From Bispira polyomma (taxonomy: Eukaryota), in contig OZ287750.1 of NCBI GenBank assembly GCA_965649765.1, forward strand, positions 80,910,001-80,974,000: DNA of 64,000 bases. The letters are read 5' to 3'. A model generated the notes under the pieces. That model saw only the letters and a list, made by a program, of their open reading frames with translations. It did no database searches and was not told the DNA's origin. The position numbers and the translations under genes are program-made. Below, piece after piece: positions 2,548-59,564 of this stretch; the stretch's first letter is position 1, and the number at the start of each line of letters is the position of its first letter.

Positions 2548-2565
2548 GGATGAGCCTACAATAAT

Positions 2566-9610: not shown

Positions 9611-10828
9611 TCAATTCCTGAACCTTCCCAAGAAGATAATAAATATATCTTGCATAGTCTGAAAACATGGCACAATTAAAAAACATATGCTTAATATGAC
9701 AACATATAATGTCAGTAAAATACCAAAACAAATCCTCTCCATTCTTTTACTGACTGATTTCCAAGATTTCCTTCTCAAATCTGATGAATTTGCAAAACTA
9801 TTGCCTTGTAATTCTTCTGAGGGCTTTTCTCTACCATTTTCAAAAACATTGTCAATAATATGTTTAGTAGTAACATCAAAAAATAGCAACGCCATCCGCC
9901 ATCTTGGTGGTTGTTTTGGTCTGTTTTCATGGAAACAATACAAACCAGAACAGATTCAGCAATGCTGAGTGATGTCATGGTGATTAAGCAATAGATATAG
10001 ATTACAATGATGGGAACATTCCCAGAACTTTCTGGAATAATTTCGTTTACCATGAGGATGAATATAAAATTTGCAACCAAACGTGAAAGGCCCATGGAAA
10101 TCTTTTCTCCTGACTCAGATGGAAAATGAGGACTGAAGGATACTGATACTGATTATAGAGTAGAGCGGCTTGTAATACACAGGTGTATTCTGGATAGAAA
10201 ACTAATCCGATTGTAAATTGTTTCCTGACTAAGGAGTCATTGACCAAGTCCCATTGATATTTTTTTCAGCAAAACTATAGGATTGTTTTACTCGCTGTCA
10301 GATTTGTTGTCAGATTTACTGATTCTCCCGAATGACCCTAAATCTGAAACCAAAATCCGCATATTTGTTTATTGAATGGGAAATATTGCATATTTATCCT
10401 ACAGTCAGCTTTAAATATATCTGCTACTGGCCAGAAGATTTCGCCATTCTGATATATATCAACAATCTGATTTCACTGATGTCTCACCTGCAAAATTACC
10501 AGTAACGATAAAAGGAGTCCATACATGTTTAGCTGGGATGCTTAAAACTCTTTGACCTCCATATTGTGATGCATCCCAAGATAGATAAAGATCAATCCAA
10601 GAGGCTGCATAAGAACCAGCTACTACTAAAACTTGATTTCTGGTATTTAACTGCAATAGTTTTGTCATCTTAAAATGTAAGGCTATCTATACACCGTTGT
10701 TGGCTTGAACACGGGATGAATGACTGGACCATAATCATTTAATAATGAATTCTCCAGTCTTCTTTCTTTAGGGAAAAATGTAGCAGCATTTAAAATTATC
10801 AAAAGTATGGAGCTGTAAGTGAGTACAT
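9611..10828 (-). pseudogene. Intronless nAChR-like Cys-loop receptor pseudogene
   Basis: Fragments in several frames: ERRLENSLLNDY, SWIDLYLSWDASQYGG, HVWTP, FYPEY, GEKISMG..LVA, IPESSGNVPII, WKSVSKRMERICF. Multiple frameshifts and stops; no introns. Confidence 0.85.
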
Positions 10829-12479
10829 ATTCAATAGCTACTTTATAATTACATTAAACTGGTTCTTCCAAAATAAGACCTGTGTCTGATAAAAAAAACC
10901 ATGAAGAATAAAGCTTTAATGAGAAAACCACTGCTTAATGTGTAGGTAAATTTTATAAAAAAATCCTAGTCGACACCATGACATTAGCTTCATTGTATTT
11001 GTTCACTAGCACAGAACTCCTTAGGCTATATACCCAATAAAGAATTGCTCCCAAAAGTAGTTTAAGTGGAGATTATTTCCTGCCTTAAATTTGTAATGCA
11101 ATGTGAATTTAAATGAAAATGATAATAAATTTACCAAAACAATTAAGAATAAATAAATACAAATCTTATCATGAAATAAAAATGGATTCTAATAAAAGAC
11201 AAAAGACAAAAAACAAGCTTAGAATCACACTCCTTTAAATAAATGCTATTTATATCTAGTGTGAACCATGCTTTTTATCATGGCAACAAACAAAAATTAC
11301 CATCTAATTCCATTGTGTATTTAAAATGTTTTATTGTGACCACTTATAACTATAATTACTGATTGTATCTGTAATATTATTGTGTTTTTATTCATCAAAG
11401 GTATGATAAAAAGTTTTAAATATTACTTTGTATCATAATATTTTACTTAATATGAATCTAGAAAACCTGACAAGAAGGAGGGACAAGATAAACAATGCAC
11501 AAGTAAATTACAAAATAGATATGTTGTTTGTACACAGTGGATGGTATCTGGATAGACTGGTCAGTGTGGAGTGACTGCAGTGTCACCTGTGGAAGTGGAT
11601 CTCTCTCCAGGAACAGGATTTGTGTTGGACCATTCCAAGGGGGCCTGGAGTGTACAGGATCGGGATAGAACTGCAAAACTGCAGCATCCAGTGTTCAGGT
11701 AAGGAGTCTTAATTTTTTTCCATATATTCTATTTCATAAAACATAGCTCAATAGACAAGTACAGTAATTATTACAATTAAAAACAATTTGTAATTAGACT
11801 CCACCTGTCAATTCAAAAACAAACTGTAGACAAAATGAATGTTACACAGTGTCAACACTTGTGTGTGTGTTTTTTAGTCCACTGTGTCACCACTGTGTCA
11901 TGCCAACTTTGTAAATGTATTATCCAATTATCATATATGTCAATAAATGAACATTACTACATTGTACATCAACATTACACACACATAATAATCTATATAA
12001 TAATCGTCCTGAAAAACTATTCAAATGGTTTTTCTATTCATATAAATCCCTAAAATAAATCTCTAAATAAATTTAGATAAGTAAAACATAAGCAACACCA
12101 CCTTAATAATTAATCTACAAGGATATTTATCTGTTAATGATCTTGTATATACATGTATCGGGAGGTTTTGAATTAGTACCATGTTTTAAATTGAATTTGC
12201 CATTTTCCAATTGCACAAATTTGCCAATGTACTTTGTTTGAATGCAAAGATTAAGTGCAACAAAAGTTTGAGATCTTCTGTAATATGACGACACAAGTGA
12301 GTGTTTTTATATATTTAAAATATGGACCAAGTAAAACTTACAGCTACATATGTGTATTATATGCCAAAAAATTATATACACTGGAAATTCAATTATTTGA
12401 ATAGATGTATTACATTTTGTTTCTCTCTCCCAATTCATATTTTTTTGTTGTTTTAGACTAAAATACCTCCTTTAGATCT

Positions 12480-12880
12480 GGGCCTATATTCACTGACAGA
12501 CTTTAACAAGTCTTGGGCTTAAATCTAGTATACTTTGTGCTAGATTTAAGCCTGAGAATTAGCTTCAGGGGCGAATTTTGTGTCTGAATCCCCCATCCGA
12601 TGTCGGTTTCCGTCATTTGAAAAACTAAAATATAATAAAATAGAGAAGTAAAATACACCTGGCCGACAGCACCTCCAAATTGAGAGCCGAATTTTCAAAA
12701 TGAGGCTGGGAAAGTTTTTATTAATTAAACAGTATTGTATACTAGAAAAAAACTACCAATTTTTTGGATGTAGTGTATCTGCAAATTCGGACATCGCATG
12801 ACGGAAACGGATGTCGGATGACAGATTTGGACGCAAAATCGGCTAGGTATATACACCCCTCAAGTCTGTTAGTGAATATG
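12480..12880. mobile_element. Palindromic MITE (gggcctatattcactgacagactt...aagtctgttagtgaatat) hosting a nested MITE
   Basis: Terminal inverted arms plus an internal palindrome gcttaaatctag...ctagatttaagc. A related terminus ggggccgtattcacaaa occurs at ~12973. Confidence 0.6.
12568..12859. mobile_element. PIF/Harbinger-like MITE with TCA target-site duplication
   Basis: TCA-GGGG...CCCC-TCA termini and ~50 bp imperfect TIRs (catccgatgtcggtttccgtcat / atgacggaaacggatgtcggatg). Confidence 0.75.
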
Positions 12881-12972
12881 TGATGGTATTAACAAAAGGA
12901 CTAAACCATAACTTTGTCTTAGATCAAGTATACTTTTGTGCTAGATTTAGGACAATGTCTAGACTTAGCCAT

Positions 12973-13170
12973 GGGGCCGTATTCACAAAAGGTTTCAGAC
13001 TTAACCAAAAATTAGGCTAAGTCAAGTCTTAAATGTAACACTTTTGTCTTAGCTAAGTTTAAGGCCTAATGGTATGTTAAAACAGACTTAACCAAAACTT
13101 AGACTAAGTCAAGTCTTTAATATAACACTTTTGTCTTTGCTAAGTTTAAGGCCTAATGGTATGTTAAAAC
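12973..13170. repeat. MITE fragment with two ~88-bp tandem units
   Basis: agacttaaccaaaa...gcctaatggtatgttaaaac occurs twice after a ggggccgtattcacaaa terminus. Confidence 0.65.
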
Positions 13171-16100
13171 ATGTTACATTGTTTTATTTACAATATTACA
13201 TAACAATATTTACATTTTTACATGCACTAATATAATGTATAATTATTTAGATCTATATCAACATCCCAAAGTAAAAACAAAATGAATATCTAATAAAAAA
13301 GTTTTGTTCATTAGACTTTCACTTAAGACTGGCTAAGTCCCCATCACATAACTGATGATTCAAAATGTCAGGAATTATATGAATTTGTTTGATTCATGAC
13401 AGGTTGCAGTTTGGATTGTTTGATATATGATCATATTATCAAATTTAAATGTTTATAGTTTTTGATACACTGCAAAATACAATGCTTTATTTGTAAAAGT
13501 TAAGTAGAAAAGAGAAAAGACTACGACTTTTTACTGTAAAGTTAAGCCCTGCACCTAGAGATTTATATTACGGTAATACAAAAACATTTAAATAGTTTTT
13601 AGGACCATAATTACATAGATTATTATGCATACAATTTTAATATGTGTGTACACAGAATGTGCAATGTTTTAATGTTCATTTAATACCATAGACGGTAATT
13701 GAGCAATACCTGAACCAACGTGCATGGCATGACACAGTGGACTGAAACACACACAGGTGTTAAGTTCACTTGGTGCAGAATATGTCTATTAATTGCTTAT
13801 GTGATATTGCGCTATGTAGCATGATAAAATTATATTTTTCACATATTTGCATTGTAGCGATACTTATGATACTTCACATTGTAAGAAATAAAATTTGTTC
13901 AAAATGCACAAAATTACGGGGTTTAAAGTGAAAAGTTCAGTGAAAATAGGTCCATTAATTGATTGGGACTTCCACTTTATAAACAAAACAGAGAAACTAT
14001 AGAATCTTCATTTATGTCATTAATATTCCAATCTATGTTGTTTACTACATCAATTATATTCTTATTATTTGATCTACAATTATTTATATACCACTCCCCA
14101 AAAGCTATTAAGAATAGTTATTAATTTTGTTAATTGCAATTGATCTATTAACCTGATAGAAACTAATACCTCAGAAATTGTAAAATCGGGTATGGATTTC
14201 AAGTTAATGGCATGGCTAAATCTGTTTTTTTGTTCCCAAAAATGTGTGTGGACACAGTTTCTCCAGTGGAAGACATCTGCAATTAATATAATAATGCTCA
14301 CTTGAGACTACCATATTATTCAAATTACTATACATTCTAAAAGATCGTCTCTAATTCAAACATATTTTGAAAAGTCTTCTTTCTACTAGGTCTCTTAAGG
14401 GTTTAATAATATAATACCTAGGTTTAATTTACACGGATGTCCATTATCATTAAGTCTTCGTATCGATCAGTGACTGTACTTTTCAACTTTGTTTCAAATT
14501 TGTCTACTTTAGCGAATCAGAACCCTTCATTAACCCTTCCGTGAGCATTAGTCGCAGCATCACAAAAGTTTTAATCTGTTAAAAGCTTTCGGTGATGAAT
14601 GCTCATTCGTGAGGGTTTTTGTGGGGGATGGAGAGTTATACGTTATTCATTTTGGAACGTTTCTTGCCAGTAGTGATAGCTCATTTTGCATTAGTGTCAA
14701 TTAGTGGCAGTTATGGACCTTTCATTGAGATTAATGAGGTATTAATGAGTATTCATCTCTCATTAGTGGATCTTAATGGACGTATGTGTCACTTTTGCAG
14801 CAGGTCCATCACAGTTTTGTTATAGATCGTTGTAAACAAGACTCAACTTTGTGATCTTGGAGGAATTGGGGATGGAAGGGGGGAACTCTATTCGTAGATG
14901 AAAGCCTGTGAACAAGAATTTGCTAGATGCAACGAATATTGAAGAACGTCTGCCTGAATGACAAGCCTTAAGCACAGACACCAATCGCTGATACACCATG
15001 TTTTAGTATGGAAATGTTTATTCTTAAATGGACTAATTTACTTTTGTGTTGATTTATACATATCAATTATCATATTAACAGATATTTTGCAGAAACAGTT
15101 AAAATTTACAAAGTACATGCTTCACTAAAATGTCATAAATCATACCCAAACAAGGAATCAATAAATACTAAGATAGTGTAGATCATCAGGAATACTTATT
15201 CAATTAATATACAGCAACTGTATTAATTTATGAATACCCTTTCATGTAATTCTTTCCAGAAGAAAGCCATTTTGTATTCTCACTTATTATGACACGAGGG
15301 AACATATTAAAAAAAAATAATTGAATGTAATAATATATATAGGCATTTTAAAGTTAGGTAGTTCAATTGCACATTGCATATCAAGATGGTTTGTAATATT
15401 TAAAAGTTCAAGGTGACTGGTCTGAATGGTCTACATGGTCCATGTGTTATGTCATGTGTGATGGGAGTACAAGGTCCCGTGCTTTTAACACAACCGAAGA
15501 CGTCCCTGAGGGGCAGGAAATGGCATGTAACAGTGGGGAGGGTGGGGAATTTGAGGCCTGTCATCCATTTAGCTGTACACCAGGTATATTTGTCTAATAT
15601 GTTTTAAAGTATATATTATCAGAATCAACTAACATATTTGGTATTATAAATATATTGTATTCAATGCCATATAATTTAAAGAATAGAAATCTAAGGATTT
15701 TTAAGCTTGAGTTGATATGGATAAAACCTGTTATTCATTTTAACATCTGCAAGAATACAAATGTTTGACACTGGGACTGCAGGTACACCTTAATTTGATT
15801 TTTATGAAGATCTAGAAAAATATAAAGCTCTATGATTGCATGAATGATTGGTATTTTCTGTCCTTGGTAGGTGTTTATTATATTTATTAATATAATAGAT
15901 ATGTTTGCTTTAACAATCATAAATATATCGTTAGAGATGGGATACAATCAACTGAGCTAAACTACAATATAATTACACTATCTAAACAGTGGCTGGTTCT
16001 GGTGAAAAATGGAAGGAGAAAGAACTTCTAGACAGCACCGCTGCAGAAATTGCCCCTAATTTTGACAAGTTTGGGGCATTTTGTGTGATGGATGGTTATG

Positions 16101-18595
16101 ATGGATATATTGTCACACAAATAAGTATTTATCTACAAGTGACACAACATTTTAAATTACACAGTATTTAAATGATGCTGCATAGCATAGGTACATATTA
16201 TCTTGATGTGTAATTTATATGTAGAATAAAACATTTTAACAAGTATTGCTATATGTTATGACCATATTGATGGCTAATTGAAATATGGTACATAGTGTTT
16301 ATACCAATGACGTCTTAGTAACAATTAAATTTGTATTGTATGTTTTTTTTTAAATGTTTGTTTTAAAATTCCCAGACATTGTACTAAACATTTAATAGAA
16401 GCAACAGCTAATTCTTCAGTGAAGTAAAACGTTTCATTACTCGCTCATGTTAAATTTAAGTGACCTATAATTTATCTTTTAATATACTTTTCCTTTCCAC
16501 TTTCATCAAGCAAACATTTCAACCAGGTCACAATGTGCTCAGTGGCCAAAGTGTCAATGGTTTTGAATCTCAGTGAGGATTCATGTTAAAGCTAGAATAC
16601 AACAGCTCCCTAGCGCATGTCATCTCCTTGGGAGACAAATCCCTGGGATGCTGGCAATTCATAAGTTAGGAGTTTACAGGACATCTATCAAGAACCCTAG
16701 TGCCATTGGGGCCAATACCTATTGGACAGACAGTTTCCATGAACCCAAATATTACTGGGGTGGGGCCTCCTATGAGGGAGAGAACTGTGCCTGTGGGGAT
16801 ACAGGGACATGTTTTAACCCAGAAACCAAGTGTAATTGTGATGCTAATAATGAAGTCCTGAGGAAGGATGAAGGGTATCTGGATTATTTGCTGAATCTGC
16901 CAGTGACACAATTTTTGGCTGGAGGTACAGGTGAGAAGTCAGATTTGTTATTTGTGTCATATGTAAGATATATGATTTATTTTGAGCATTCCACATTTTA
17001 GGATCTGCTGCTTTGCGATCGAAGCTTTACAAAATTTTAACATCCATTGAAAATGATTTTGTCACAGAAAAAGTTTTAATATATAACAAATCACAGTGAC
17101 TGGTGATAATTATTTCAAACGAGTATTTAGATAAGGATATTTATATCAGCCCAAATTCAGGAATATTTATAAACTAAGATGAAAACCCAAGATGTGTATT
17201 GTTAAAATGGCCACTTTATTCAACTGACAAAAATGTATATATTAAACCAAGCATACAAGATCTTTACAATTTGATTACATCACACAAGTGACTTATATAT
17301 ACATTATTTATTTACCTAAATGTGTTGAGGGACACCAACCCAAAATACCGCAGGTATTCCTCACCCCACAACGAAAACTGAAGAAAACAGAAAACACATA
17401 TTGACATTGATATATTCAAATGCTATTTGAATGAAAAACAAATAAATGTAAATAAATTTTACATTCACCTTAAGAGGTATATATATCATACTTTAAACCA
17501 GTGTTAAAAATTACAGGAGATAAGAAGGTCATTCAAAAAATAGAAAACTAGCTCAATAGAGTCCATATATAGTCAATATACAGCCGATTATATCAAATTT
17601 TTTTTTAATATCTTTATAAAATGTTACCTATACCATGCGGTCAATAGTTATTTGATTAAATTATCAGCATACTGTTTATTGTTTGTGTTTAGTATTTGTT
17701 AGGTCTTGTGTGTCACATGCAGTAATGGAAAAATACAAAATTTTTAATGAGGTAGTTGAATATACACAAAGTATTTTGTAGTGTTGTATTGATGTGTTTT
17801 TTGTGTAAAATGTTTTTTCAGTAATATTAACTTATGTTAACATACTGTGTATGAAACATACTGTGGGACACCGATGGGATGTTTCCATTTCAGTAAAATT
17901 AAATCTGTGAAAAAGGGGTGAATAAACTGATTTAACTGAAAACAAAAATAAAAAAAATATTGACATTGATATGGTTCAAATCCTGATGTATTTCTCCAAA
18001 GTCCACTGAGTTTATATCAGAAGCAGAAAGGCCTATTTAAGCCAAATGGGAACAGGCACCAATGCAAAAGAAATGGGTTTTAATGTTTGATGGGCATTGA
18101 ATGTAGATGGACACTCTGGATATTTTTCTTTTAAAATAAAGATCTGCAAAAAGTGAAATATATAAAAATGCAAATAATGGGCCAGGAAAGGCTTGCCTGA
18201 GATATATATATATATATATATAATGTTTCACAGCTGTTTATGGAATGCCATTTGTATACATTCATCAAACAGAAGAACCTGGGAGAAATGAAATAAATCA
18301 GGGACAGTGATAGATGAACCTGAGACACTGAGTGTACACATATTAACCAGTGCATGAGCACATAAGAGAAACATACCCTTCATCAAAAGGTGTATATGCA
18401 GTATTGAAAAAAAACAGTTGGTGGACAAGATTAGTAGGGACAGGAGCTGTAAGTCACTGGATGGGTGTTGCCCTGAAATGCCACACAGTATTTTGGTAAC
18501 CATAAAAAAGTGATATGGGGTCAGTCAGTTTATTTATTGTAAAGATGACATGGCAGATTAATATGCAGAAATAGAGTAGGACAAATTTAGATCAA

Positions 18596-18748
18596 ACAGT
18601 GGCCGAGTGGTTAGCAAGTTTGGCATCTAATCACATGCTCTCACCTCTGCGTGGGTTCGCTTCCCAAAACTGACAATTGCTGCGGACCTGTCCCAATATG
18701 ACCCTGGCTGTTGAATGGGAAGAAAAACCCTAAACTTTGACTTTGTTC
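18596..18748 (+). mobile_element. Short tRNA-derived SINE
   Basis: A box gtggccgagtggtt, B-box-like gggttcg, tail gtcccaatatgaccctggctgttga. 12-bp TSD aatttagatcaa at 18584-18595 and 18749-18760. Confidence 0.8.
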
Positions 18749-19299
18749 AATTTAGATCAATCATACAACCAAAGGAAAATTACTTGAAAAAAATACTGGA
18801 TAGTGGGTGAAATACCCTAAAGGTCCATTCATTTTAACACAAATAAAACAGTGTGAGCATCCACACATTATTTATTTGTTCTGAAACACAAATAAACTTT
18901 AATTAAAACATATCTGACTCAACATCCAATCTCTAATCTGAAAAAGTACCCCACCCTTTCCCCACCTCCACCACCTGGTAAAGTGTAATGTCTCCAAGGA
19001 GTTTATTGGGATAAATATTGTTGTCACATATTTACCCAATGTTACACATATTGTGACCTACAGTATGTTGATATTACATGTTGATATTACATTATTGTAT
19101 AAGCAGAGTAATGTTGCAAGTATATTAATTTGGCCAGATAAATGCTATATTTAAATCATAAAACTGATGGAGCATATATTTCCTAAAGGTGATGTGGTAG
19201 TTTTATATCGTCACTTAACCAAATAAAGAAATAAGATCGTAGTTATTGTTCAATGAATACAAGCTTAATATAACTAAAACTTATGTATTTGTCTATGTT

Positions 19300-19640
19300 G
19301 TCTCTGTGGCTTAGTGGTTAGGGTGTCAGACTTGAGATCTCAGGGATCTTGAGAGCTCAGGTTTAATCATCGCTGCAGGCCTGAAGATTGTACCCTTGGA
19401 CAAGGGGCTTTACACAAAGTTGTCCCTCTCTACCCAGGTGTATAAATGGGACCTGGCCACTAATCGGTGTTAGTCTTTGTTTGCTGTATGTGGAGGCATT
19501 GCTAGTATGCTTCATGAGGGAGCTGAGACTGAATAATGATTGATAAGTTAAAGAACCCAGGCTAGGGGTGTAAACTGTAAAGTCGGCTGAGTCCTCAATA
19601 GAGGTGATATCAGATTATAAACCTACACACATTTACATTT
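19300..19640 (+). mobile_element. tRNA-derived CORE-type SINE with L2-like tail
   Basis: A box gtggcttagtggtta, CORE-like cccttggacaag...cccaggtgtataaatggg and a tgtaaagtcg...tataaa tail. A 5'-truncated second copy was created by the tandem duplication. Confidence 0.75.
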
Positions 19641-20599
19641 GTCGGTTCTGAAAAAATTCAATTTATACCAACAGTACTTTTTAGGACACTGCAATTTAAA
19701 ATTCCAACAACTAACTCCTTAGGGAAAAACATTGTGCATGCATGAAAGACTTAAAATACTTATTAAATATATCTAGGAGAGCACACACAGTACCACAGTA
19801 TAGAACCAATACAGTGCTGGGGTGAAAGCCAACGATATCAATATTTCTATTAGGTTTCTATTAAAAATATTGCAGTTTTATTTCTCATTCTCTTAGCTTG
19901 TGTCTTCTCATTCTCAATATTCTCTCATTGGCATGGATTTTTTTATGAATTTATTCACAATATGTACATATAAATTCACACTATCATCGCTGCAGGCCTG
20001 AAGATTGTACCCTTGGACAAGGGGCTTTACACAAAGTTGTCCCTCTCTACCCAGGTGTATAAATGGGACCTGGCCACTAATCGGTGTTAGTCTTTGTTTG
20101 CTGTATGTGGAGGCATTGCTAGTATGCTTCATGAGGGAGCTGAGACTGAATAATGATTGATAAGTTAAAGAACCCAGGCTAGGGGTGTAAACTGTAAAGT
20201 CGGCTGAGTCCTCAATAGAGGTGATATCAGATTATAAACCTACACACATTTACATTTGTCGGTTCTGAAAAAATTCAATTTATACCAACAGTACTTTTTA
20301 GGACACTGCAATTTAAAATTCCAACAACTAACTCCTTAGGGAAAAACATTGTGCATGCATGAAAGACTTAAAATACTTATTAAATATATCTAGGAGAGCA
20401 CACACAGTACCACAGTATAGAACCAATACAGTGCTGGGGTGAAAGCCAACGATATCAATATTTCTATTAGGTTTCTATTAAAAATATTGCAGTTTTATTT
20501 CTCATTCTCTTAGCTTGTGTCTTCTCATTCTCAATATTCTCTCATTGGCATGGATTTTTTTATGAATTTATTCACAATATGTACATATAAATTCACACT
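19366..20599. repeat. Apparently perfect 617-bp tandem duplication (19366-19982 / 19983-20599)
   Basis: No differences between the two copies seen by eye. Confidence 0.95.
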
Positions 20600-20879
20600 A
20601 CAATAGCAAAATATAAAAAATAAAACAATGTAGTTTGAAAAAATAGAAATGTACAACAGCTATTAAACATACATGACAATTTCAGTCAACTGTCCAGAAA
20701 TACCCCCCCCCTCCCCCCCCCCCCAAAAAAAAAAAAAAAAAAAAAATAATAAGGGTGAAACTTATAGCACAAAATAAAAAGCATAATATAAAACAGAAAA
20801 GTAATTAACAAATTACCTGGCCCAATGCAGGTATACTTTGTAACAGCCAACAAAAAATCACTATTTTCCAGTTTTTAAA

Positions 20880-23709: not shown

Positions 23710-23870
23710 ATCCAATCTTGCTCTTGACACTCTTATTAATGTGGTATATGGAACACAGATTTGTGGTATTTTGTGCCACAAACCAGAGGGCCATCTTGCT
23801 TTTGACACCTTTGTTGAAATAGTATATGGGACACAGATTTGTGGTATTTTGTGCAGCAACCCAGAGGCTC
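23710..23870. repeat. Two imperfect 78-bp tandem units
   Basis: cttgct(c/t)ttgacac...gtatatgg(a/g)acacagatttgtggtattttgtgc...ccagagg, repeated twice. Confidence 0.75.
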
Positions 23871-41771: not shown

Positions 41772-41818
41772 CCCTGTGCTTTGTCTATACAGTACCTTAT
41801 GTTTCAGACATTCACCCA

Positions 41819-47400: not shown

Positions 47401-48893
47401 TATACAAAATTTCCACCAATACACATATGGTAGGAAAGTTACCATATTGTTTGACCACAAACCTCTACAAACAATAGTGAATAAACCACTCCATTCTAGG
47501 CCGAAGTGACTGCAAGGGATGATTTTAAAATTGCAGCAGTACGACACAAACATTTAATATACACTAGGTAAAGAAATGGACATAGCTGATTTCTTGTCTA
47601 GATCTTACCTAAAAGACACCACAGGAGCAGAATCCTATGATTATGTGAGTCAATTAGTACATCTACCTGTTAGACAAGAAAGGTTGAAGAAAATTCATGA
47701 GGTTTTGCAGTCAGACCCAGTGATTCTACGGTTAGGAGACATTATCAGAACTGGCTGGCCAGAGCAAAAAAGTCAAGTGCTGTTAGAGGTCATGCCATAT
47801 TTTCATTTTAGAGATGAACTTACTGTGCACAATGCTTTAGTTTTTAAAGCAAACCAGATTGTGGTCCCCTCAGCTATCAGAAAAGAAATCTGTAAGGCGC
47901 TTCACGTTACACACACAGGTGTTAAAGGATGTTTACACAGAGCCTGTGACTGTGTCCTCTGGCTAGGGATGAACACCGACCTCAAGGAGTACTTCCAACA
48001 GTGTCAAATCTGTAACATGTATAACATGAAGCAACAAAAGGAAACTCTTATTTCACTTGAACTTACAGACAGACCTTATGAAAAAGTCAGCATTGACCTA
48101 TTTGAGCTGGAAGACCAATACTACTTGATCTCTGTTGACTATTACAGCAATTTTTGGGAAACCGATCTGTTGATGAACACACGTACGTCAACCATAATAA
48201 CAAAGCTGAAGTCACACTTCGCCAGATATGGTATCCCAAACGTATCAGTGAATGACAATGGTCCCTAATTTACCAGCAAAGAGTTGGAAAATTTTGTGTG
48301 CCAGCGGGACATTGAACATAGAACTAGTTCACCTGGACACCAACAAGCAAATGGGAAGGCAGAAGCTGCTGTTAAAATGGCAAAAAGAGTTATTTCAAGA
48401 GCCCGAAAAAATAACTAAGACCCCCACATAGCCATCTTAGAGTACAGAAATATACCATCGCAAGATACTGGTTCAAGCCCTGCACCAAAAATGTTCACAA
48501 GAATGGCAAGTACAATGTTGCCAGTGAAAGATGAACTGTTGAAGCCAAAAGATAGTGAAACAGTAAAAAAAGAATCAAATGTTGCCAGATATGCGGAAGG
48601 AATGGTACTACCACAAACATTCAAAAGATCTGGGACCTTCATGTGATGGTCAAGTGGTCAGATTGCGACTACTGGCTGATCACGACAAAAGTGATGACAC
48701 TTCCAATGTACACAACCAGGATGAAGCAATCATCTCTAATGAACCAAATGTTAACAATAACAAGTGTGACCAGAAACCAGATAAGGTTGTTTCCACAGAA
48801 AAGACCAGCATAGAACCAGAAAGCAGTCCTGGAGTGCGACGCTCTAACAAACAACACAGAGCACCTGAATATCTAAAGGACTATTCTTGTTAA
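44492..48893 (+). mobile_element. Ty3/Gypsy (Mag-like) LTR retrotransposon, degenerate; no 3' LTR found
   Basis: Starts TGTAAC. Gag MRDRLVFG with CTKCRGRNHFAVKC, protease FQVDTRAT, RT IRICIDP, RNase H CDASQSG / YAQIEKEMLA, integrase HVTHTG..C..C and DNGP, ending RRS..PEYLKDY. Confidence 0.9.
46682..46939 (-). mobile_element. tRNA-derived Meta-core-like SINE inserted in the Gypsy RT
   Basis: Reverse-complement copy of 59730-59981. 14-bp TSD gttga(c/t)aactaggc at 46668-46681 and 46940-46953. Confidence 0.9.
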
Positions 48894-49083
48894 AATATAA
48901 AATATCTTGTTAAAGACATTATTACTACCCAATGGAAAACCTAAGTAACTACTACCACTAGAGGCGCCACAGGAAGAGTCGGTCCAGACAATCCATCAAA
49001 TTCCCGGATGTAGCATTTACTTATAGTGTAGTTTGTAAACAAAGGGAGATCGCATACACATTGTAAATTTATGTTTTTAAAAG

Positions 49084-51114
49084 ATGTCAAAAGAGAGTAG
49101 CAAGATGGATACGGATCCATGACACTAAAACAACTAAAAGATGAACTTCGTAAAAAAATGCCAAGTTATCTGGAAGAAAACAAGAACTTGTTGAAAGGTA
49201 AGTAATCACCCACACACATACACGAGGATGGTTTATTGTTGTTTTTGTCTACATGTAAAGTGGTGTGTGTTCAGTAGGCTGTGTGTAATAAATCTCTTTT
49301 AAATATACAGTTGCAAGTGCATTTTAAAATAAGTATTCCTGAACTTTTTTATCTTCAGACATCGTGTTAGTATGAATACTATGAAAAACAGAAGTTCCAC
49401 ATATTATACTTTTTGTAATCACTTCCTGGTCACAAAAAATGTCTGGAATGACTTCATATATTGTGATTATATAGTAACAATTAATTAAGTAAAAATTCTG
49501 AAAAATATGTATGATTTCAGGAAATAATATAGTTGTAATAACTGTTATTACCTCATTAAATATTTACATAATTGTCTGCATGTTTTTTAGTTAAAAATTA
49601 GTTTGTGATATTTTTTCCACATCAAGGTAGTTGCAATGCTGATATATTTATAACCCATTTACTTTCAGATTAGAGTTTTGTGAGAGAAACAAAAGTGCTT
49701 CCCAGTCCAGTGACACACAATGTACATTCAATATGGATCTTCCAGCTGATTCTCTCTACTGTGACATCAATAGTGACACTGCTTTCGTTGGCTTTAATGT
49801 TTCTTCATTAACTGACTATTTGTCTCAGTTTGAAAAAGATGTGTCAAAGGAAGCCATTGCCATGTATGAAGAGAGATATTTTAGATTTGTCCGTTTGGCA
49901 CAAGTGAATGACACAACCTATATCAGAAGTCAATGTAAAGCCCAAATGAAAAAAACATGTTGTGTACACTGTAGATGGGAGTCTAGATCAGACAGGGAAT
50001 GTGTGCCAGGCCCAATGTGAATGTGGAGCTGGAATGGGACCGAACTGCCACTGCAATCACCTGTCTGGACTTTTATTTGGCCTTTCAAAATTTACGAAGG
50101 ACAAATTCATGAAAACAGGAAACCTGTACAGAAAGATTACAGACATTCCACAAGGCTAAGCGATTCAAAGGGTCTCCTGTTAAGTGTTGTGATCTTAAAC
50201 TTACAATGAAAACCAATGAGGCAAACTCAGTCAACTTTGATCCCCGCCCAGCAGAATTTCAAAACATGGCTGGGTAAAATGACTATTTCAGAAACATTTG
50301 TCACTCATTTCCCAGTGTGAATATGCCCATTGCTCAGTTATTTCCACCAGCAAATATGCGGGCAGTTTCTAGGGACCACGACTATTTGCAGAACACCCCA
50401 GATGAGCAGTTTCTCCACAATCACGACATCAGTCACATTTCACAGGATGAGATTGTAAAAGTTGAGCCTGGTACACAGGGACAAACAAAAAACAAAATGT
50501 GGCTTAGTGAAAGAAGTAGACGTATTCAGTCTTCGCAATTTGGCTGCATATGTAAAGCAACTGACAAAACAGATTTCAAAAAGTTGGCAAGATCATTAAC
50601 TGAGGTAGTGTCAGTTGAAAGTAAGGCCTTGAATCATGGTAGGAAATTTGAAGCTACAGCTATCACCAAATTTGAAAATTTAGCAAATGAAGCAGTTGTT
50701 CCTTGGGGGATATTCATATCGAAACAATTCCCTTTCCTAGGAAGTTCACCAGATGGACTTGTGGGTGAGGATGCTGTTTTGGAGGTCAAATGTCCATATG
50801 TGGCAAGGGAAAAAGAAATAACCCCACTAACAGTACCATACCTGAAAGTGAATGCCTCTGGGGATATTGAACTGGACAAGAGTCACATTTATTATTATCA
50901 GGTACAGGGTCAACTCTTGTGTACACTGAGGAAAAAGTGCTACTTCTGTGTCTTCACAAAAACTGATTTGAAGTACATATGTATTCACCGAGATGAACGT
51001 TTTATAGATGTTATGACCTCAAAATTGAAAACCTTTTATCTGGAACACTTCAAGAATGTTGTTTTAGAGAAACACTTCTACAAATTATCTCATGTGTTTA
51101 TGACATCTGTTTAA
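49084..51114 (+). pseudogene. SAP + SWIM + YqaJ (lambda-exonuclease-like) accessory gene, intron 49198-49668
   Basis: MTLKQLKDELRK..LSGRKQELVER|L (SAP, split by a GT-AG intron), CECGAG..CHCNH (SWIM), GSSPDGLV..LEVKCPY..YYYQVQGQL (YqaJ). Frameshifts and a stop are present. Confidence 0.85.
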
Positions 51115-51409
51115 CTATATCCCCTATGTTAAGTTAGTACAGTGTACAAGAGTTTGGTTAAAACTAAGCTGTATTTTCATAACTTAAAAACAAAATAAAT
51201 CTTTTTTTACTGTTTTTTTTTTTTTTTGTGACTACCTTCTTTAAACATTAGTCGTGTTACCATGTCATGCATGTATAAAACATATTATAAAATAATAACC
51301 TTGATATTGTACATGCAAGTGTGCAGTTTGTTTTCTATTTGACAGAATAAACCAGCAAACTCTATAATTTGAAGTCTTTTTATTTCAACTTTTCAAAACT
51401 TTAATTCTC

Positions 51410-51907
51410 TTAAGCATACTTAGACACTATGCAGTCTCTAAAATTACATAACATATAACAAACAAAAGTGATCTCTGTAGCAAGCTTTGTTTCAGTTACA
51501 TTGAAGGGCCTGTGTAATATCTTGTAGGTCTTCGCCTGTCCAATTATGCGTTCTATGTGAGCCCTCTTGCTCGCGATCTTACGATCTGACAGAACTGTTT
51601 CTCCAGACAATCGGTTTTTCTTTTTGAAAAAAGATGGAATGTTCACTGTCACATCATAAGTGGCAAATAGATCCTGAACATTAAAACCTTTGTCAGCCAT
51701 TACTGAGTCACCTGGATCACACATCCGGGTTAGGTCAGATCTTTCAACTATTTGTCTGTCACTGGTTGATCCTGAAAAAGCAGGTGAAATGTAGGACACC
51801 ATTACACCAGGGGTTGCACCTATTAGCACTTTTACTGTGTTTCGATTTTTGTAGGTCGAAAATGTAGCTTGTTGGGCTCGTGTGGTTGCTGGTTTCTGAA
51901 CTGGCAC
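51410..51907 (-). pseudogene. C-terminal part of a Harbinger/ISL2EU DDE transposase
   Basis: STYKNRNTVKVLIG, GSTSDRQI, VMADKGF, IASKRAHIERIIG. The N-terminus is lost at the BEL LTR (51908). Confidence 0.88.
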
Positions 51908-54900
51908 TGTTAGCAACAGCCCACAGATATAGGGCCTGACATAGATATACAGCTTTGTATGTAGTGTTAGCAACAGCCCACATACATCCCATGCTGTAAT
52001 TAGTCAATTTATCATTGTGGTTGAATTAGTTCAATGCTTATGTTTTACTACTACATGTAATTAGAAATACAAGCATCCTGTTTATGTGGGTATGCGGCTG
52101 TCCTGCTTTGGTCTTTACTTGTACACATTGATGCAGTTATATACAGTCATTTCCTCTCTTTGTTACATTTCTGTTTATAGTACTGATGCTGCCATGTTGT
52201 GTGTAAAAAGTCTTTGTTAAAAAAATTAAAGTTAAATCCTAAAAGATCATCAATATTTGGATACCATCAGGAGTTCCCAATGTGGTAAATAACATTTATT
52301 ATATTTAAAGATTTGTTTATATGACGTTATATGCGATAATATCATGTAATTTGTAAGATAAAACCATAATTATGTGAAAGCATGTAAAGTTACTAGCAGT
52401 AGATATGCAAGTAATTTTATGTAAATCAAATTCCATTTTTTGTATATCAAGAATAATTTGTTATTCAAGAATCATGTAATAGCTTGTATTTGTTTTAGTA
52501 TAATATCCAGAAAATAGTGTTTTGTGTATACAAATATCTTTCAACTGAATATTTTGTAATAAGTTACTTGTAACATGTGTTCTTATTATTATGTTCAGAT
52601 TAATGCCTTTCTTGTGTGAATATACATGTGTATTATGTTTTGTTTAACAAGTGTGATTTGGTAATTGTATTTTTTGGACAATGTCACATTGCTTGTGTAT
52701 TCTCTATTTCTATGTATACCTTTTACTTGAGGAAGTTTTCTTTTTCTTTTATTTTAGTTAAACCTCACAGACTTACAGTCTTACAATCTTAAAGATCCAA
52801 TCACACCTTTGTACTCTGAAGAAAATAAAAACACCAGATAACCACACTGTGTCTGTATGAGTATAACAGGGGAACAGAACAACACTAAATAATAAAACAA
52901 CTACACCAAGTGACTTAATGTGTACGCCACATTAAAAGTTTAACACAAGTTAACATAACTCCAGTGGTTAACAAGTTTAACACGAGGCTTAAGTTTAAAA
53001 AGACGAAAGTTAACACAACAAAAAACAAATACACCACACGTACACCAGATATAGATATGTCAACTAAAGGCAATCAGGAGACAGAATTCTCTACTTCAAC
53101 ATTGAAGAAAGATAGAGGCCATGCAAAGGCAAATGTCACCAGGATAATGCACCATATTGAACCCCTGCTCATAGGAAATGATGTTGAGCAAGTTAACAAA
53201 CTGATGACATCCTTTGACGAGACTATTCACACCTTTGAGGCTGCTCATACAGAGTACCATGTAAAGCTGGAAGATCCAGCAGATATAGCCGACTCTGAAG
53301 AATACTTCAAGAAATTTTCAATTGATGTGCAAACCTTCAGAGAAAAAGTGCACAACTGGCTAGCCGTGGGGCATTCTGATGCCTATCCACCTGCTCAAAC
53401 CAACACCATCGAACACCATTCAGTGTCAGAGACAAATACCAGCTCACAAAGATCCTCAATCCAACTATTTCAGAAAGAGAATCTTGAACAGAAGCTTGAG
53501 TTACTCAAGATGAAGTGTGACCTTCAGCTCCAGCAAGCCCAGGTGGACCAAAGAAAGAAAGAAATTGAAATGGAAGCAGTGGAACACCGGAGGCAACTGG
53601 AGTATGAGGTTAAGTTACAAAGGATGGAGCTAGAAAAGGATCGCTTTCTTATTGAAAAAAGGGAATTTGAAATGTCAAAGAAGATGGCTGGCACAGATAA
53701 TGCACCAAGCGACTCTGGCCACCACCACAGTTCAACTCATCAAGAAAAATCCACACCAAGCAGTGACAAGACCAGTGATGTAAACCAGTCTCCTTACTTA
53801 TCCATAAAAAGAAAGAGCCTTTCCAATGACCAAAATACAGGGACTGATGTAAGTAACATTCTGTGCCGCATGTTGAATGATTCCAGGATCCAGCAACAGT
53901 CATTAGTACAGGCAATCCAGCTTCCCAAGACAGAGCTCACACCCTATGATGGGAATCCATCGGAGTACCATTCCTTTCTGCAGTCTTTTGACAACTCTGT
54001 CCATCATGAGTCAGTGCCAGATCATGCAAAGCTTGGTCGCCTAGTACAGTACACCACAGGAAGAGCAAAGAAGGTAATACAGTGCTGCCTTTCCAAACCA
54101 CCCACCGAAGGTTATGCATTAGCAAGACAGTTGTTAAAGGATAGGTTTGGAAATCCAGATCACATCACCCACGCATAGATGGAGAAAATCCTTAATAGAC
54201 CCAAGGTGAGCGGAAGTTCCCAGCTGTTGGAATATGCAGATGACCTACGGTGCTGCATGGAAACATTAACAACAACAAATGCTGTGAACGAAATAAACAC
54301 TCAAGGGAAACTGTATATAATAGCAGAGAAATTACCAGACTACCTGGCTCGTCGCTGGCTCGCAAAAGCGCACAAGATCAAAACAGTTCGCTCTCTAACT
54401 ATCAAGGACCTAGTTGAATTTGTTTCTGATGTGGCAGAGGAAGCTTCAGATCCAGTTTTCGGCAAGCTAGCAGGCGGAAGAAAACCTCAAAATCCCATAG
54501 AGATGACTAGGTGGGGTAAAAGGGCCTACACTGTACAAACAACTACCCCAAATAAGCAAACATCTGCACCTAGGAAGGCCTACTCTGCCAAACCAGCAAA
54601 TCTCCAATCTTTCAGACAAGATTACAGTTGCCCTTGTAATCAAAACCATTTTCTCACCAGGTGTGAATCTTTCAGGTCCATGCATGTGAAAGATCGCTTA
54701 GGATTTGCACAATCTAAGCATCTCTGTTACCTCTGTCTGAAACCCAACCACAGTAGCACAGATTGTTCACGTACCTTTGTCTGTGACATAAATGGATGTG
54801 GTAAGAAACACAACCGCTTTCTACATCTACCAAGAGCTGAGGATCATCCTGGAGTATCATCCAGTGAGCTAACAAACACTGATATACACCCTCAAGCCAA

Positions 54901-57400
54901 AACTACACCAGCAGTTAGCTGCAACTTCAGTGGCTCAAAGTCAGGAAAGATTGCCTTGCCAATTATGGCTGTGCACATAAAAGGAAAAGGGAGAAATAAT
55001 TACATTGACACCTATGCATTGGCAGACACTGGTTCAAATCAGACATACATTACCAGGCAATTAGCTAACTCTCTTGGTCTAAGAAGCAGGCCTTTGGTTG
55101 TAGACGAAGCTACAATAAGTGGAAAGTACACCATGGAGGTACAGATTGCAGACATCTCACTGTCCACTACAGATGATGGCCAATGTTTTGAAGCCAGTGA
55201 TGTAATAATTAAACCAAACTTGAATATCGGTCTCGCCAGTCGCGTGTCACAAGCTGAAATTGTCAACTGGTATCACTTGAAAGATGTTGCTGTGCCTGAT
55301 GTTCAATCCGATGATGTTCACATCTTGATAGGCCAAGACCTTGCTGCTCTGTTAAAACCACTGGAATTGAGATCTGGAAGGGTGAGCCTTATGCCGTTAG
55401 AACTGTCTTTGGATGGTTAATCAATGGTGTTGTAAATACACAGGTACCCAAGGCAAGATTGAACCCAGCTAGCTACTTTGTGAAAATGGACCAAGAGCTC
55501 TCTGCACAGGTAGAAAGGTTTTGGCACCTGGAGGATGCAAGCTCAACAGAACCAGACATGTCAGTAGAGGACAGACAGGCGATTTCCATCTGGAATGAGT
55601 CAGCTGTCAAAATAGACAAACATTACACCTTGGACATACCATTCAAAACAAAACCCCCAAATCTGCCTGACAACCACCACATGGCCGAACACCGCCTAAG
55701 ACTACTGGGCAAGCGACTAGACAAGAAAGTAGAGCTAAAGGAAACATACTCCAAGGGAATTAATGAACTGTTGCATAAGGGCTACACAGAAAAAATTAAA
55801 CCAGAAAACCTCAATGGCCAAGCAGGCCGTGTGTGGTACCTCCCTCATCACCCTGTTGTCCATCCTAGAAAACCTGACAAGGTGCGCATTGTGTATGACT
55901 GTGCAGCTAAATATCAAGGAGTGTCCCTGAATGACAGAGTCATGCAAGGCCCAGACCTAGCAAACAAGCTTATTGGTGTTCTGCAGAGGTTCCCGCCAGG
56001 ACCCAGTAGCCTTCATGGCAGATATTGAAGGCATGTATCACCAGGTGCGTGTTCCTGTTGCAGATAGAGATGTACTCAGGTTTCTGTGGTTTGCTGATGA
56101 CAACACTGCTAACCCACCAGACGTGTATAGGATGACAGCTCATCTCTTTGGAGGAGTCTGGTCTCCTAGTTGTGCAAACTTTGCACTGAGAAAGTGTGCA
56201 GCTGATCAAGAACAGAATTATAGCCCAGAGACTATATCCACCATTAAGAACAACTTCTACGTTGATGACTGCCTAAATTCCTTACCCACAGCAGAAGCTG
56301 CCATCCAATTGATTAAAGAATTACACCAATTGCTGACAACAGGTGGTTTCCGCCTTACCAAGTTCCTGTCCAACTCCAGAGAAATTATGAAAACTATACC
56401 GGAATCTGAAAGGTCCAAGGTTATTTCTGAGTTAGATTTGGATCTGGAAGACTTGCCATCAGAGCGTGCTCTTGGTGTACTGTGGTCAGTTGAAGATGAC
56501 AACCTTACATATAATACTACAATCCAAGAAAGACCAAACACCAAAAGAGGCCTACTCAGTGTTGTGAGCTCTGTTTATGATCCCCTTGGCTTTGTGAGTC
56601 CATTCATTTTGAAGGCCAAGATGTTATTTCAGAATCTGTGCCGCCTGCAGTGTGACTGGGACCAACCTATGCCTGATGACATCGCCCACCAATGGTGTCG
56701 GTGGATGGAGGACCTGAAATATATTGACCAGCTAAAAATACCAGATGTATCACACCTTCGTCTTTCACAATTGGGAAAGCACAATTACACCACTTTGCTG
56801 ATGCATCTCAGCATGCTTATGGAGCTGTGTCATACATACGCCTAACAAATGGTGCCCATTACCATGTCAGTTTGTTGGTTGCTAAGTCCCGTCTGGCACC
56901 CTTGAAGACAACTACTATTCCACGGCTAGAGCTTGCAGCTGCTGTTGAGGCCACCAAACTAGATAAAATGTTGACAAATGAACTACAAATTCCTCTGGAT
57001 GAGTCAGTGTTCTGGACAGACAGTACTATTGTTTTGTGGTATCTGAACAACACAGAAAAAAGATTTCAAACATGTTGCCAACCGTGTCTCACTGATACAG
57101 CAAAATTCAGATTCAAGTCAATGGAGGCATGTGGACACTCACAATAACCCAGCTGATGACGTTTCCAGAGGACAAACAGCAGAAGAGCTCCTAAATAATA
57201 CTCGATGGATTCGTGGTCCCGAGTTTCTCTGCCAGAACAGTTCAAACTGGCCTGTACAGCCAGTACTATTAAATCCAGACTTAGAAGAGCAAGCTGAGAC
57301 CAAGAGAGAAGTCAAGATATATTCCAACACCTCAGCCGAAAATTGCATTGTTGACAAATTCCTACAAAGGTTTTCCTTGTGGACCAACTTAACAAGAACA
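51908..57400 (+). mobile_element. BEL/Pao LTR retrotransposon: 5' LTR (~51908-52884) + gag-pro-RT-RNase H; truncated before the integrase, no 3' LTR
   Basis: TGTTAG start. LPKTELTPYDGNP, three CCHC knuckles, ALADTGS protease, YLPHHPV, FYVDD, YDPLG, HHFADASQHAYG, PRLEL, NPADDVSRG. Confidence 0.92.
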
Positions 57401-58292
57401 CACTTATTACTTTTTATATAAGCATGGGTCGATGCATCATATTAAGCTAAGCCTCAGGTCACCACAAAACAGGTGCATGGAATTGAGCACAATATTTATA
57501 GCAATTTAAATTTTAGTCTGAAATGGGAATGAACTTTCCAATTAGTTATAATGAATTTTCATGGTGAAATGTAAGTCAGTCAAAAAAAGAATTTAGAAAA
57601 AATGGGACATAACGATAGATATCAATTTGACATATCAATAGCTGTGAAAGCTGTGAATGTGACCAATGATTATAACCTTTGCTTTGATGTATGGCACTAG
57701 TGTCATCGTACTGGCAGATTCATACCAAAACCTTTTGTTGATCATTCAGATTCATACCAAAACCTTTTGTTGATAATTAATGTATTGTTAAGAGAGTGTT
57801 TCTCCCCTAATGGCTTTTTATCAGGCGCAGCCTGACATTGTTTTCATTCTGAAAAGGGTGCTGCTATATTAGAAAATATGCAAGGCCTTTGCGGATTGGT
57901 TGAAAGCAATCAAATCAGCAAAACTGAGGGGTTTCAGATCTATTGTTATCAGGTACAGCCTGGGACCTAATTATATAGTGGCCATATCAAAGTCAGCGTG
58001 TTTTACACTGTGTGCCTATGTCTCTTTCAAAAGACAACTCTCGTTAATTATGTATGCAATTCAGACTTGCAGTTTATTTGTTTAGCTGATTGAGACAAAT
58101 ATAACAGGACAATAAAATGCAATTACGTGTCATTTGCACTGCCTCTACAGTCAATAATGTCATCAAGGGTACATTCGGTTATGCATTAGCAATGTTTTTA
58201 TATCCATAATGAACTTACTCGAGGTAAAAAACAATTGTCATATTGGAATTGTATTCAGCACATTAGACATACATTCTTGGTAAAGACTCAAC

Positions 58293-59564
58293 ATGTTATT
58301 ATATGGTATTTTGCAAGGAATAACTTTTTTGACTTTGTCATACACTGTTGTCACTTCAGAAGATGAAAAGAAGCTAATTGAATCTCTACTTACAGATTAT
58401 GATATCAGAACAAGGCCAGTTCTTTATTCAGCTGATTCAGTACAGGTCAATCTTGTTTTTCAACTATTGAAAATCATTCATGTAGACACAAAACAGCAAA
58501 TGATAACCGTCAGTGGATGGATTCATACAGAATGGGACGACAACTTTCTAGCTTGGAAATTGTCAGAATACAATGTTACTCCTACGTTGGTATTACCAGC
58601 AAATGAAATATGGACACCCGAGTTGTACATTGTAAACAGTGTTTCAGAAGCATTGCACAGAGAAGAGTGGCTATCCCATTTCAAGCTTGTGATACTGTAT
58701 AAAGGAAGTATCACCTGGGTACCTGGAGGGATACTGAAATTTGATTGCCCTATGGATGCAAGATATTTCCCATATGATGAGCAAGTGTGTAGAATGGAGT
58801 TTTCCAACTGGGCCTATACTGGTGCAATGGTAAACTTAACGTCTGGTCTTGTAAAGCAAGGTGATATGCTTAACAATTACCAGGAAAACAATGAGTGGGA
58901 CATTCATACAACTTCTGTTGAAAGAATTGAATTCAGGTACCCAGAATATGATGGCTTCTACCCAGAAGTCCATTTCATTCTCCATCTCAAAAGAAAACCT
59001 TTGTTACATGTGATTAATATCATGATACCTTCTCTCTGTTCAGGAGTGTTAATACTCTTCATGTTCTATCTACCCCCAGATTCTGGTGAGAAAATAGCAA
59101 TGGGTGTGACAGTGCTGGTGGCTTTCTCTGTGCTCTCTCTGACCATCAACGAACATATCCCTGAATCCTCCAGAAACATACCTTTCATTATCATCTTTAT
59201 CTATGGACTGATGTTAATGGCAACCCTAGGTATAGCAGAGACAGTAGTGGTTCTCTTTTGTTTCTATCATAATGGAAGTTCACGAGCACCTGTCTGGCTG
59301 AGATTTGTGACACTTTACAAACGATGTGGGCAGTTTAGGAACAAAATGGCAGAAGAGATGGGAAATACCAGTGTACCTATTAATGACATATCAAAAGAGT
59401 ACAAGTCACAAGTGGATACTGCAAGCCCAGAAAGCAGAGCCGAGAATATGAATGTTGCAGAGGAGTGGAAATTGATAGCCAAACACGTCAATTGTTTCTT
59501 CTTTGTATTGCAAATGATCATGTTTATTGGGTTGCTGGTAGTTCTAATGATAATATTTGTCTGA
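58293..59564 (+). CDS. Intronless nAChR-like Cys-loop ligand-gated cation channel subunit, non-alpha type, 423 aa
   Basis: Signal peptide, LLTDYDIRTRP, WTPEL, CPMDARYFPYDEQVC, SNWAY, PPDSGEKIAMGVT and four TM segments. Single open ORF with AATAAA at ~59584. Confidence 0.95.
   Translation: MLLYGILQGITFLTLSYTVVTSEDEKKLIESLLTDYDIRTRPVLYSADSVQVNLVFQLLKIIHVDTKQQMITVSGWIHTEWDDNFLAWKLSEYNVTPTLVLPANEIWTPELYIVNSVSEALHREEWLSHFKLVILYKGSITWVPGGILKFDCPMDARYFPYDEQVCRMEFSNWAYTGAMVNLTSGLVKQGDMLNNYQENNEWDIHTTSVERIEFRYPEYDGFYPEVHFILHLKRKPLLHVINIMIPSLCSGVLILFMFYLPPDSGEKIAMGVTVLVAFSVLSLTINEHIPESSRNIPFIIIFIYGLMLMATLGIAETVVVLFCFYHNGSSRAPVWLRFVTLYKRCGQFRNKMAEEMGNTSVPINDISKEYKSQVDTASPESRAENMNVAEEWKLIAKHVNCFFFVLQMIMFIGLLVVLMIIFV

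What the first reader, a model, noticed from the sequence alone, without database searches (positions are those of the whole stretch)
9611..59564. Cluster of four intronless, non-alpha nAChR-like genes: candidate chemosensory receptor array in birth-and-death evolution
Seen: two intact and two dead single-exon Cys-loop genes within 50 kb, in both orientations. The intact proteins have no loop-C vicinal Cys-Cys (KEFTIDNYEFYPEV; IEFRYPEYDGFYPEV), lack the loop-A Tyr (PELFITNN / PELYIVNS vs PDIVLYN), retain the loop-B Trp and the cation-type GEK, and have a very short M3-M4 loop. Established: canonical nAChR genes are intron-rich; intronless tandem expansions are known in molluscs; and cephalopod chemotactile receptors are divergent nAChR-like channels that lack the ACh-binding signature. 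Inference: a retroposed, tandemly expanded receptor family tuned to non-ACh ligands.
Basis: partly seen in the sequence, partly recalled or inferred. Interest (0 to 1): 0.72.

Follow-up and report, generated by a model that had tools for sequence, protein, structure and literature searches.

The report
Fan-worm intronless nicotinic-like receptor array
A likely fan worm carries a cluster of 14 intron-free copies of an acetylcholine-receptor-like channel gene, only three intact, whose varied binding pockets and unusual pore gate suggest they likely detect chemical cues other than fast nerve signals, though where they are expressed and what they bind is untested.

Summary
The window has two intact single-exon Cys-loop genes (A, 401 aa; B, 423 aa), two pseudogenes and a fifth fragment. 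They belong to a 14-copy array on contig C3 (13 copies in 143 kb, one 110 kb away): 3 intact, 1 frameshifted before M4, 10 dead. Half of it arose by one collinear block duplication, not gene-by-gene copying. The host is likely a sabelline fan worm, not a mollusc. The genes lack introns that their nearest paralogues keep, so one old retroposition is likely. They are not conventional beta subunits (AU test) and are further from cephalopod chemotactile receptors than from alpha7. Loss of the ACh signature is only partial: B keeps four of five aromatic-box residues, like ACh-gated EAT-2. No RNA evidence; ligand and tissue unknown. A new, annelid example of a known kind.

The parts
8802..9252 (-).
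   Evidence: tblastn E 1.5e-16 and blastn to gene B, in-frame stops; twin at C3:80,839.6 kb
9611..10830 (-). Receptor pseudogene (lineage F), stops and frameshifts; 5' end approximate
   Evidence: tblastn, frames read; pairs with C3:80,840.5 kb copy at 100/100
34992..36197 (-). Gene A: intact single-exon non-alpha nAChR-like subunit, 401 aa; 9' Val, 20' Gly; 3 of 5 aromatic-box residues
   Evidence: orthologue P0003, 56% identity, 99/97 support; AATAAA 37 and 54 nt after the stop
43721..44507 (+). Pseudogene of lineage B, 83% nucleotide identity to gene B, two deletions, one stop, cut in M2
44492..48890 (+). Decayed LTR-retrotransposon-like insertion that truncates the lineage-B pseudogene; ends approximate
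   Evidence: junction sequence; integrase zinc-binding domain at 47558-48265
58293..59564 (+). Gene B: intact single-exon non-alpha nAChR-like subunit, 423 aa; 9' Val, 20' Glu; 4 of 5 aromatic-box residues
   Evidence: model pLDDT 91.6; intact twin B' at C3:80,882,953, 86% identity; orthologue P0001 52%
8474..61414 (+). Right-hand copy of a collinear block duplication; left copy at C3:80,839,230-80,886,120, interrupted differently by transposons
   Evidence: collinear blastn segments; Jukes-Cantor distance 0.08-0.20 in 6 of 6 segments measured

Best explanation
The cluster is an old array of intronless non-alpha nicotinic-type subunit genes in a likely fan worm, likely founded by one retrocopy and enlarged by tandem and block duplication, whose intact members are predicted to form cation channels that likely sense small cationic amines outside fast synapses, for example at the body surface. 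Shown: the copy map, the missing introns, the block duplication, the residues and the selection pattern. Inferred: a spliced mRNA of an intron-containing, alpha10-like lophotrochozoan subunit was reverse-transcribed into this locus; it split into about seven lineages; a 50-85 kb block then doubled and most duplicates died. Inferred mechanism: subunits A, B and B' assemble as homo- or mixed pentamers. The invariant loop-B Trp and loop-C Tyr hold a cationic nitrogen (choline, betaine or ACh-like), while loops C, D and F differ between paralogues and retune specificity. The GEK ring passes cations. The Val at 9' and small polar residue at 17' would weaken the hydrophobic gate, giving more sensitive, slowly desensitising currents suited to tonic cues.
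For: 14 copies, 3 intact. GT/AG introns after loop A in 4 of 4 nearest intron-containing paralogues examined, after the M2-M3 loop in 3 of 4, and in the Cys-loop in 2 of 4; the array reads through all three sites. Array clade 100/97, nested in a 20-row clade 100/99, apart from alpha7 and beta. B vs B': dN/dS 0.44 (95% bootstrap 0.29-0.68); M1-M3 0.17, M4 0.09, extracellular domain 0.50; extracellular vs membrane Fisher p 0.007. Six of 30 extracellular differences fall in 7 residues of loop F (scan p 0.004). 9' Val in 7 of 7 array proteins of both genomes vs 6 of 93 relatives. 9' mutation L247T in alpha7 slows desensitisation and raises ACh potency 660-fold (PMC4548482, passages). Intronless tandem chemoreceptor families are a general pattern (PMC11526382, passages).
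Against: Nothing here shows expression, tissue, assembly or ligand. The 9' precedent read here is Thr, not Val. Loop F is a variable surface loop, and B-branch extracellular dN/dS is 0.99 (23 N, 6 S), which fits relaxation as well as retuning; it does not differ significantly from the B' branch (p 0.30). Only 3 intact genes is small for a chemoreceptor family (Octopus has up to 26 CRs). Bivalve intronless nAChRs are expressed in embryos, gonad and gill, and up to 31% barely at all (PMC6896357). The annelid orphan Alpo4 keeps the aromatic residues yet answered to none of more than 30 ligands (PMC10338036, passages).
Confidence: 0.42

Rival explanations
1. Internal cholinergic receptors: ACh- or choline-gated non-alpha homomers like EAT-2, or partners of the related alpha subunits, in muscle, gland, gonad, coelomocytes or embryos.
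For: B-type proteins keep W55, W149, Y188 and Y195 equivalents. EAT-2 is an ACh-gated homomer without Cys-Cys that keeps W149, loop-C Tyr and loop-D Trp. Orthologues are stable one-to-one across two genomes. A Cys-Cys-bearing relative lies in the same 20-row clade (P0176).
Against: Pocket residues differ sharply between lineages (A keeps 3 of 5, C 2 of 5 aromatic residues), which is unexpected for one fixed transmitter. Heavy gene death. Short intracellular loop.
Confidence: 0.3
2. Functional equivalents of cephalopod chemotactile receptors, binding poorly soluble hydrophobic molecules on the crown or collar.
For: Same genomic syndrome (intronless, tandem, no Cys-Cys). B adds aromatic residues to loop C (Y219, F222). 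CRT1 binds through aromatic residues (bioRxiv 10.1101/2025.03.03.641191, passages).
Against: CRT1 and CRB1 rank below alpha7 and Alpo4 (Z 23.3, rmsd 2.5, 286 aligned, 24% id; Z 23.2, rmsd 3.0, 306 aligned, 20% id; alpha7 Z 33.5, rmsd 4.4, 379 aligned, 29% id) and are not among the best 60 sequence hits. The cation-pi loop-B Trp is kept in all intact copies.
Confidence: 0.12
3. A family in decay: the intact frames are recent survivors with little or no current role.
For: 11 of 14 copies are damaged; lineages C to G have no intact copy here; B-branch extracellular dN/dS 0.99, near the pseudogene's 0.81.
Against: Membrane-domain dN/dS 0.09-0.17 with no indel across 423 codons, while flanks diverged 0.18-0.20. 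Intact orthologues persist in a second genome. Poly(A) signals follow all three stops.
Confidence: 0.12

Closest known systems
Intronless tandem nAChR arrays of bivalves (Jiao et al. 2019, PMC6896357)
   Same: Intronless, tandem, mostly non-alpha, retroposition followed by duplication, with decayed members.
   Different: Host is likely an annelid (that paper says intronless nAChRs were found only in molluscs; its Fig. 3a could not be seen). One locus with 3 intact genes rather than dozens; block duplication; fixed 9' Val.
Cephalopod chemotactile receptors CRT1/CRB1
   Same: nAChR-derived, intronless, no loop-C Cys-Cys, Cys-loop fold.
   Different: 20-24% identity and lower structural rank than alpha7; the aromatic box is largely kept; sensory expression and hydrophobic ligands are untested. 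No CR sequence could be put in the tree.
C. elegans EAT-2 (PMC7173930)
   Same: Non-alpha, keeps loop-B Trp, loop-C Tyr and loop-D Trp; cation-type.
   Different: No sequence comparison was made. EAT-2 is a pharyngeal ACh receptor that needs EAT-18; nothing here shows ACh gating or an auxiliary protein.
Alvinella Alpo4 (PDB 8bx5; PMC10338036)
   Same: Annelid orphan nAChR-like subunit without Cys-Cys, with aromatic residues kept.
   Different: 25% identity. Alpo4 has Phe in loop A, Leu at 9' and Met at 16'; the array has Val at 9' and Leu at 16'.
Lophotrochozoan alpha2/alpha10/beta3-like annotated subunits (Patella XP_055958875, Lottia, Haliotis, Mytilus, Lingula, Owenia CAH1801850)
   Same: Nearest named relatives (31-40% identity where measured); most also lack loop-A Tyr.
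   Different: They keep Leu at 9' and some keep Cys-Cys; the worm's own members of this group have introns. Which one is the parent is unresolved (polytomy, 93/91).

Membership tests
Cys-loop pLGIC, nAChR-like | LBD + TM domains, C-x13-C loop, four TM helices | tested here: met
   Pfam above cut-off; C152-C166; model with four helices and best match alpha7
Cys-loop pLGIC, nAChR-like | Cation-type GEK at M1-M2 with Glu at -1' | tested here: met
   7 of 7 array proteins; actual selectivity not measured
Alpha nAChR subunit | Vicinal Cys-Cys in loop C | tested here: not met
   absent in 7 of 7; present in 62 of 93 relatives
Alpha nAChR subunit | Full aromatic box (Y93, W149, Y188, Y195, W55) | tested here: not met
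   B 4 of 5, A 3 of 5, C 2 of 5
Conventional beta subunit | Groups with the beta2/beta4-like clade | tested here: not met
   own beta2-like gene identified; joining it with the array is rejected, p-AU 6e-69
Cephalopod chemotactile receptors | Intronless, tandem, no Cys-Cys | tested here: met
Cephalopod chemotactile receptors | Membership of the CR or CR-like clade | tested here: inconclusive
   low rank in sequence and fold searches and a non-cephalopod host, but no CR sequence in the tree
Cephalopod chemotactile receptors | Sensory-cell expression; hydrophobic agonists; ACh-insensitive | not testable with these tools
   needs RNA and electrophysiology
Retrogene-derived array | Loss of several ancestral introns together | tested here: met
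   three intron sites of nearest paralogues read through; N-terminal introns not examined
Retrogene-derived array | Poly(A) remnant, target-site duplication, identified parent | tested here: inconclusive
   none apparent in flanks printed; parent unresolved
Birth-and-death family | Mixed intact and dead paralogues; lineage-specific gain and loss | tested here: met
   3 intact of 14; C and D dead here but full-length in the other genome

The most novel reading that the evidence does not exclude
Fan worms independently turned a retrocopied nicotinic subunit into a family of peripheral ionotropic chemoreceptors, parallel to cephalopod chemotactile receptors, with a naturally weakened 9' gate that gives sustained, sensitive responses to water-borne cues on the feeding crown.
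Probability: 0.25. Interest if true: 0.75.

Novelty: new member of a known kind. Interest (0 to 1): 0.38.

Why it matters
What the expanded lophotrochozoan nAChR-like genes do is an open question; most are orphans. This array is small, well mapped and has orthologues, near-twin paralogues (B, B') that differ mainly in loop F, and a fixed natural change at the gate. That makes it a tidy test of whether neurotransmitter receptors became chemosensors again outside cephalopods. If it proves to be internal cholinergic signalling, it is an ordinary annelid extension of a pattern known from bivalves.

Tried and rejected
No RNA holder listed for gene B: no evidence either way. Atlas look-ups gave no result. 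No complex model was obtained. Earlier scan notes held nothing on this array. A profile homologue search added one protein only. Assembly error as cause of the frameshift in copy C: a 407-nt contig spans it without gap in 3 of 3 runs (at most 2 samples, possibly the assembly's own). A small intron rescuing copy C: no suitable donor in the sequence. Mollusc host: rejected on COX1 and gene strands. dS between lineages A, B and C is saturated, so those ratios were not used. Positive selection: not shown; no branch or region exceeded dN/dS 1. Search for an L247V paper found none. Kang 2023, Allard 2023 and van Giesen 2020 were not held; nothing of them was seen. Five rows were dropped before the 74-row tree (degraded copy psiA, three short exon pieces, one near-duplicate Patella protein). 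The duplicated exon-like ORF at 16526-16998 matched nothing in Pfam or PDB.
Full report
Observation. Six-frame translation and tblastn confirm two intact single-exon genes, A (36197-34992, minus, 401 aa) and B (58293-59564, plus, 423 aa), 48% identical, both above the Pfam cut-offs for the ligand-binding and membrane domains. The two dead copies are real: 9611-~10830 (minus) and 43721-44507 (plus). The latter has 49-nt and 1-nt deletions and a stop, and is cut in M2 by an LTR-retrotransposon-like insertion. A fifth fragment lies at 8802-9252.

Extent. The window is G000:C3:80,910,001-80,974,000 of a 1.035-Gb genome. I read C3 from 80.720 to 81.104 Mb. It holds 14 copies: 80.826 (dead), 80.834 (C, frameshift before M4), 80.838 (dead, A-like), 80.8396 (fragment), 80.8405 (dead), 80.883 (B', intact, 86% to B), 80.895 (fragment), 80.898 (C', dead), the five in the window, and 81.080 (D, dead). 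Three of 14 are intact. In one search (99 of 249 candidates scored) the best hits elsewhere matched in exon-sized pieces, with one long open frame on C2 as an exception; counts there are lower bounds.

How it grew. Collinear blastn segments pair 80,839,230-80,886,120 with 80,918,474-80,971,414, and 80,827.5-80,836.6 kb with 80,895.2-80,899.7 kb. Six aligned segments differ by 0.08-0.20 substitutions per site, similar to dS of 0.16 between B and B'. So a block duplication doubled an older set of about seven lineages (inference). The left block lacks the 2.5 kb that holds gene A; deletion or insertion cannot be told. The four nearest intron-containing paralogues examined have GT/AG introns after loop A (4 of 4), after the M2-M3 loop (3 of 4) and in the Cys-loop (2 of 4). 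Array genes read through all three, which fits one old retroposition (inference). The parent is unresolved.

Host. Mitochondrial COX1 is at most 76% identical to the 120 listed hits, and the top ones are annelids. In a 43-row tree it joins the sabellid Pseudopotamilla (100/85, long branches, so unsure). cox1-3 and nad3 lie on one strand and eight genes on the other, the split described for some Sabellinae (PMC13602327, passages). The host is therefore likely a sabelline fan worm.

Relatives. They pair one-to-one with A (99/97), B (100/97), C (99/95) and D (100/99) in a 74-row tree. The 12 array rows form a clade (100/97) inside a 20-row clade of unnamed sequences (100/99). Its named neighbours are Patella, Lottia, Haliotis, Mytilus, Lingula and Owenia subunits. 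An AlphaFold model of B (pLDDT 91.6) matches alpha7 best; Alpo4 follows at Z 27.9 (rmsd 2.3, 325 aligned) and CRT1 and CRB1 at Z about 23.

Pocket. Against alpha7, B keeps W55, W149, Y188 and Y195 equivalents (W76, W173, Y216, Y223), has Glu-Tyr in place of Cys-Cys and Val for Y93. A also lacks Y188; C also lacks W55. Y93 is already absent in Cys-Cys-bearing Patella and Lottia relatives, so it is an older loss. EAT-2 shows that such a pocket can be ACh-gated; Alpo4 shows that it may not be. 'Non-ACh' is thus open.

Pore. All 7 array proteins have GEK, Val at 9', Leu at 14', Ser at 15' and Thr, Ser, Ala or Val at 17'. Among 93 relatives, 87 have Leu and 6 Val at 9'. In alpha7, L247T at 9' slows desensitisation, raises potency and increases spontaneous opening. 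A milder effect for Val is my inference. A and its orthologue also lack the 20' acidic ring.

Selection. B vs B' gives dN/dS 0.44 overall, 0.17 and 0.09 in membrane parts, 0.50 extracellular and 0.88 in the M3-M4 loop (Nei-Gojobori). Extracellular and membrane parts differ (p 0.007). Loop F holds 6 of 30 extracellular differences in 7 residues (p 0.004). Branch counts give 0.99 for B, 0.43 for B' and 0.81 for the pseudogene, not significantly different. C vs C' is 0.25, so lineage C broke recently. Function of the pore is being kept; adaptive change in the pocket is not shown.

Comparison with print. Intronless tandem nAChR arrays from retroposition are described in bivalves (PMC6896357, parts 1-3 of 6 and passages), and CR-like clades in several mollusc classes (PMC13174522, passages and section 3.4). 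Searches for an annelid or sabellid case found only a general review (1 paper), mollusc papers (5 of 6 listed) and taxonomy or genome notes (10 of 25 listed); subscription papers are not covered.

Verdict. A real, well-resolved birth-and-death array, a new annelid member of a known kind. The most likely working is amine-gated, slowly desensitising cation channels outside fast synapses (0.42); internal cholinergic use is a close rival (0.30). Interest 0.38.

Noticed in passing
window 16526-16998 (+); L039:5597-6073: Cysteine-rich exon-like ORF present in both duplicated blocks (87% identical), with related pieces at C3:72.7 and 72.9 Mb. It resembles the fibrinogen-like part of Caspr/neurexin IV from recall; no Pfam or PDB hit.
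   Followed up: partly
window ~1200-6860 (-) and ~38300-42800 (+): Two decayed reverse transcriptase plus tyrosine-recombinase retrotransposons; the first has repeated segments at 621-855/1474-1708 and 1207-1473/6592-6858.
   Followed up: no
window 25601-31917 (+): LINE with endonuclease and reverse transcriptase, preceded by an ORF1-like frame with a UPF0029 (IMPACT-like) domain at 26053-26874.
   Followed up: no
window 50278-52003: YqaJ-like exonuclease ORF (+) facing a DDE_Tnp_4 transposase piece (-).
   Followed up: no
window 52919-57418 (+): BEL/Pao retrotransposon, broken, just upstream of gene B.
   Followed up: no
window 19366-20600: Exact 618-bp direct duplication (100% identity); very recent or an assembly artefact.
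   Followed up: no
L034:5718-6488 (+), C3:80.796 Mb: Last exon of a homeobox gene about 30 kb left of the array; useful as a synteny anchor.
   Followed up: no
L011 / L070:6134-7096 (+), C2:34.946 Mb: A separate Cys-Cys-bearing nAChR-like gene with a 609-codon open frame, apparently intron-poor and unrelated to the array: possibly a second retrocopy.
   Followed up: partly
L052-L053 (G000:C75, 15,503 bp): Strongly rearranged mitochondrial genome with genes on both strands and a very divergent COX1.
   Followed up: partly
window ~58255 (+) and ~36232 (-): Splice-acceptor-like sequences 33-37 nt upstream of the start codons of B, B' and A; a 5' UTR intron is possible.
   Followed up: no
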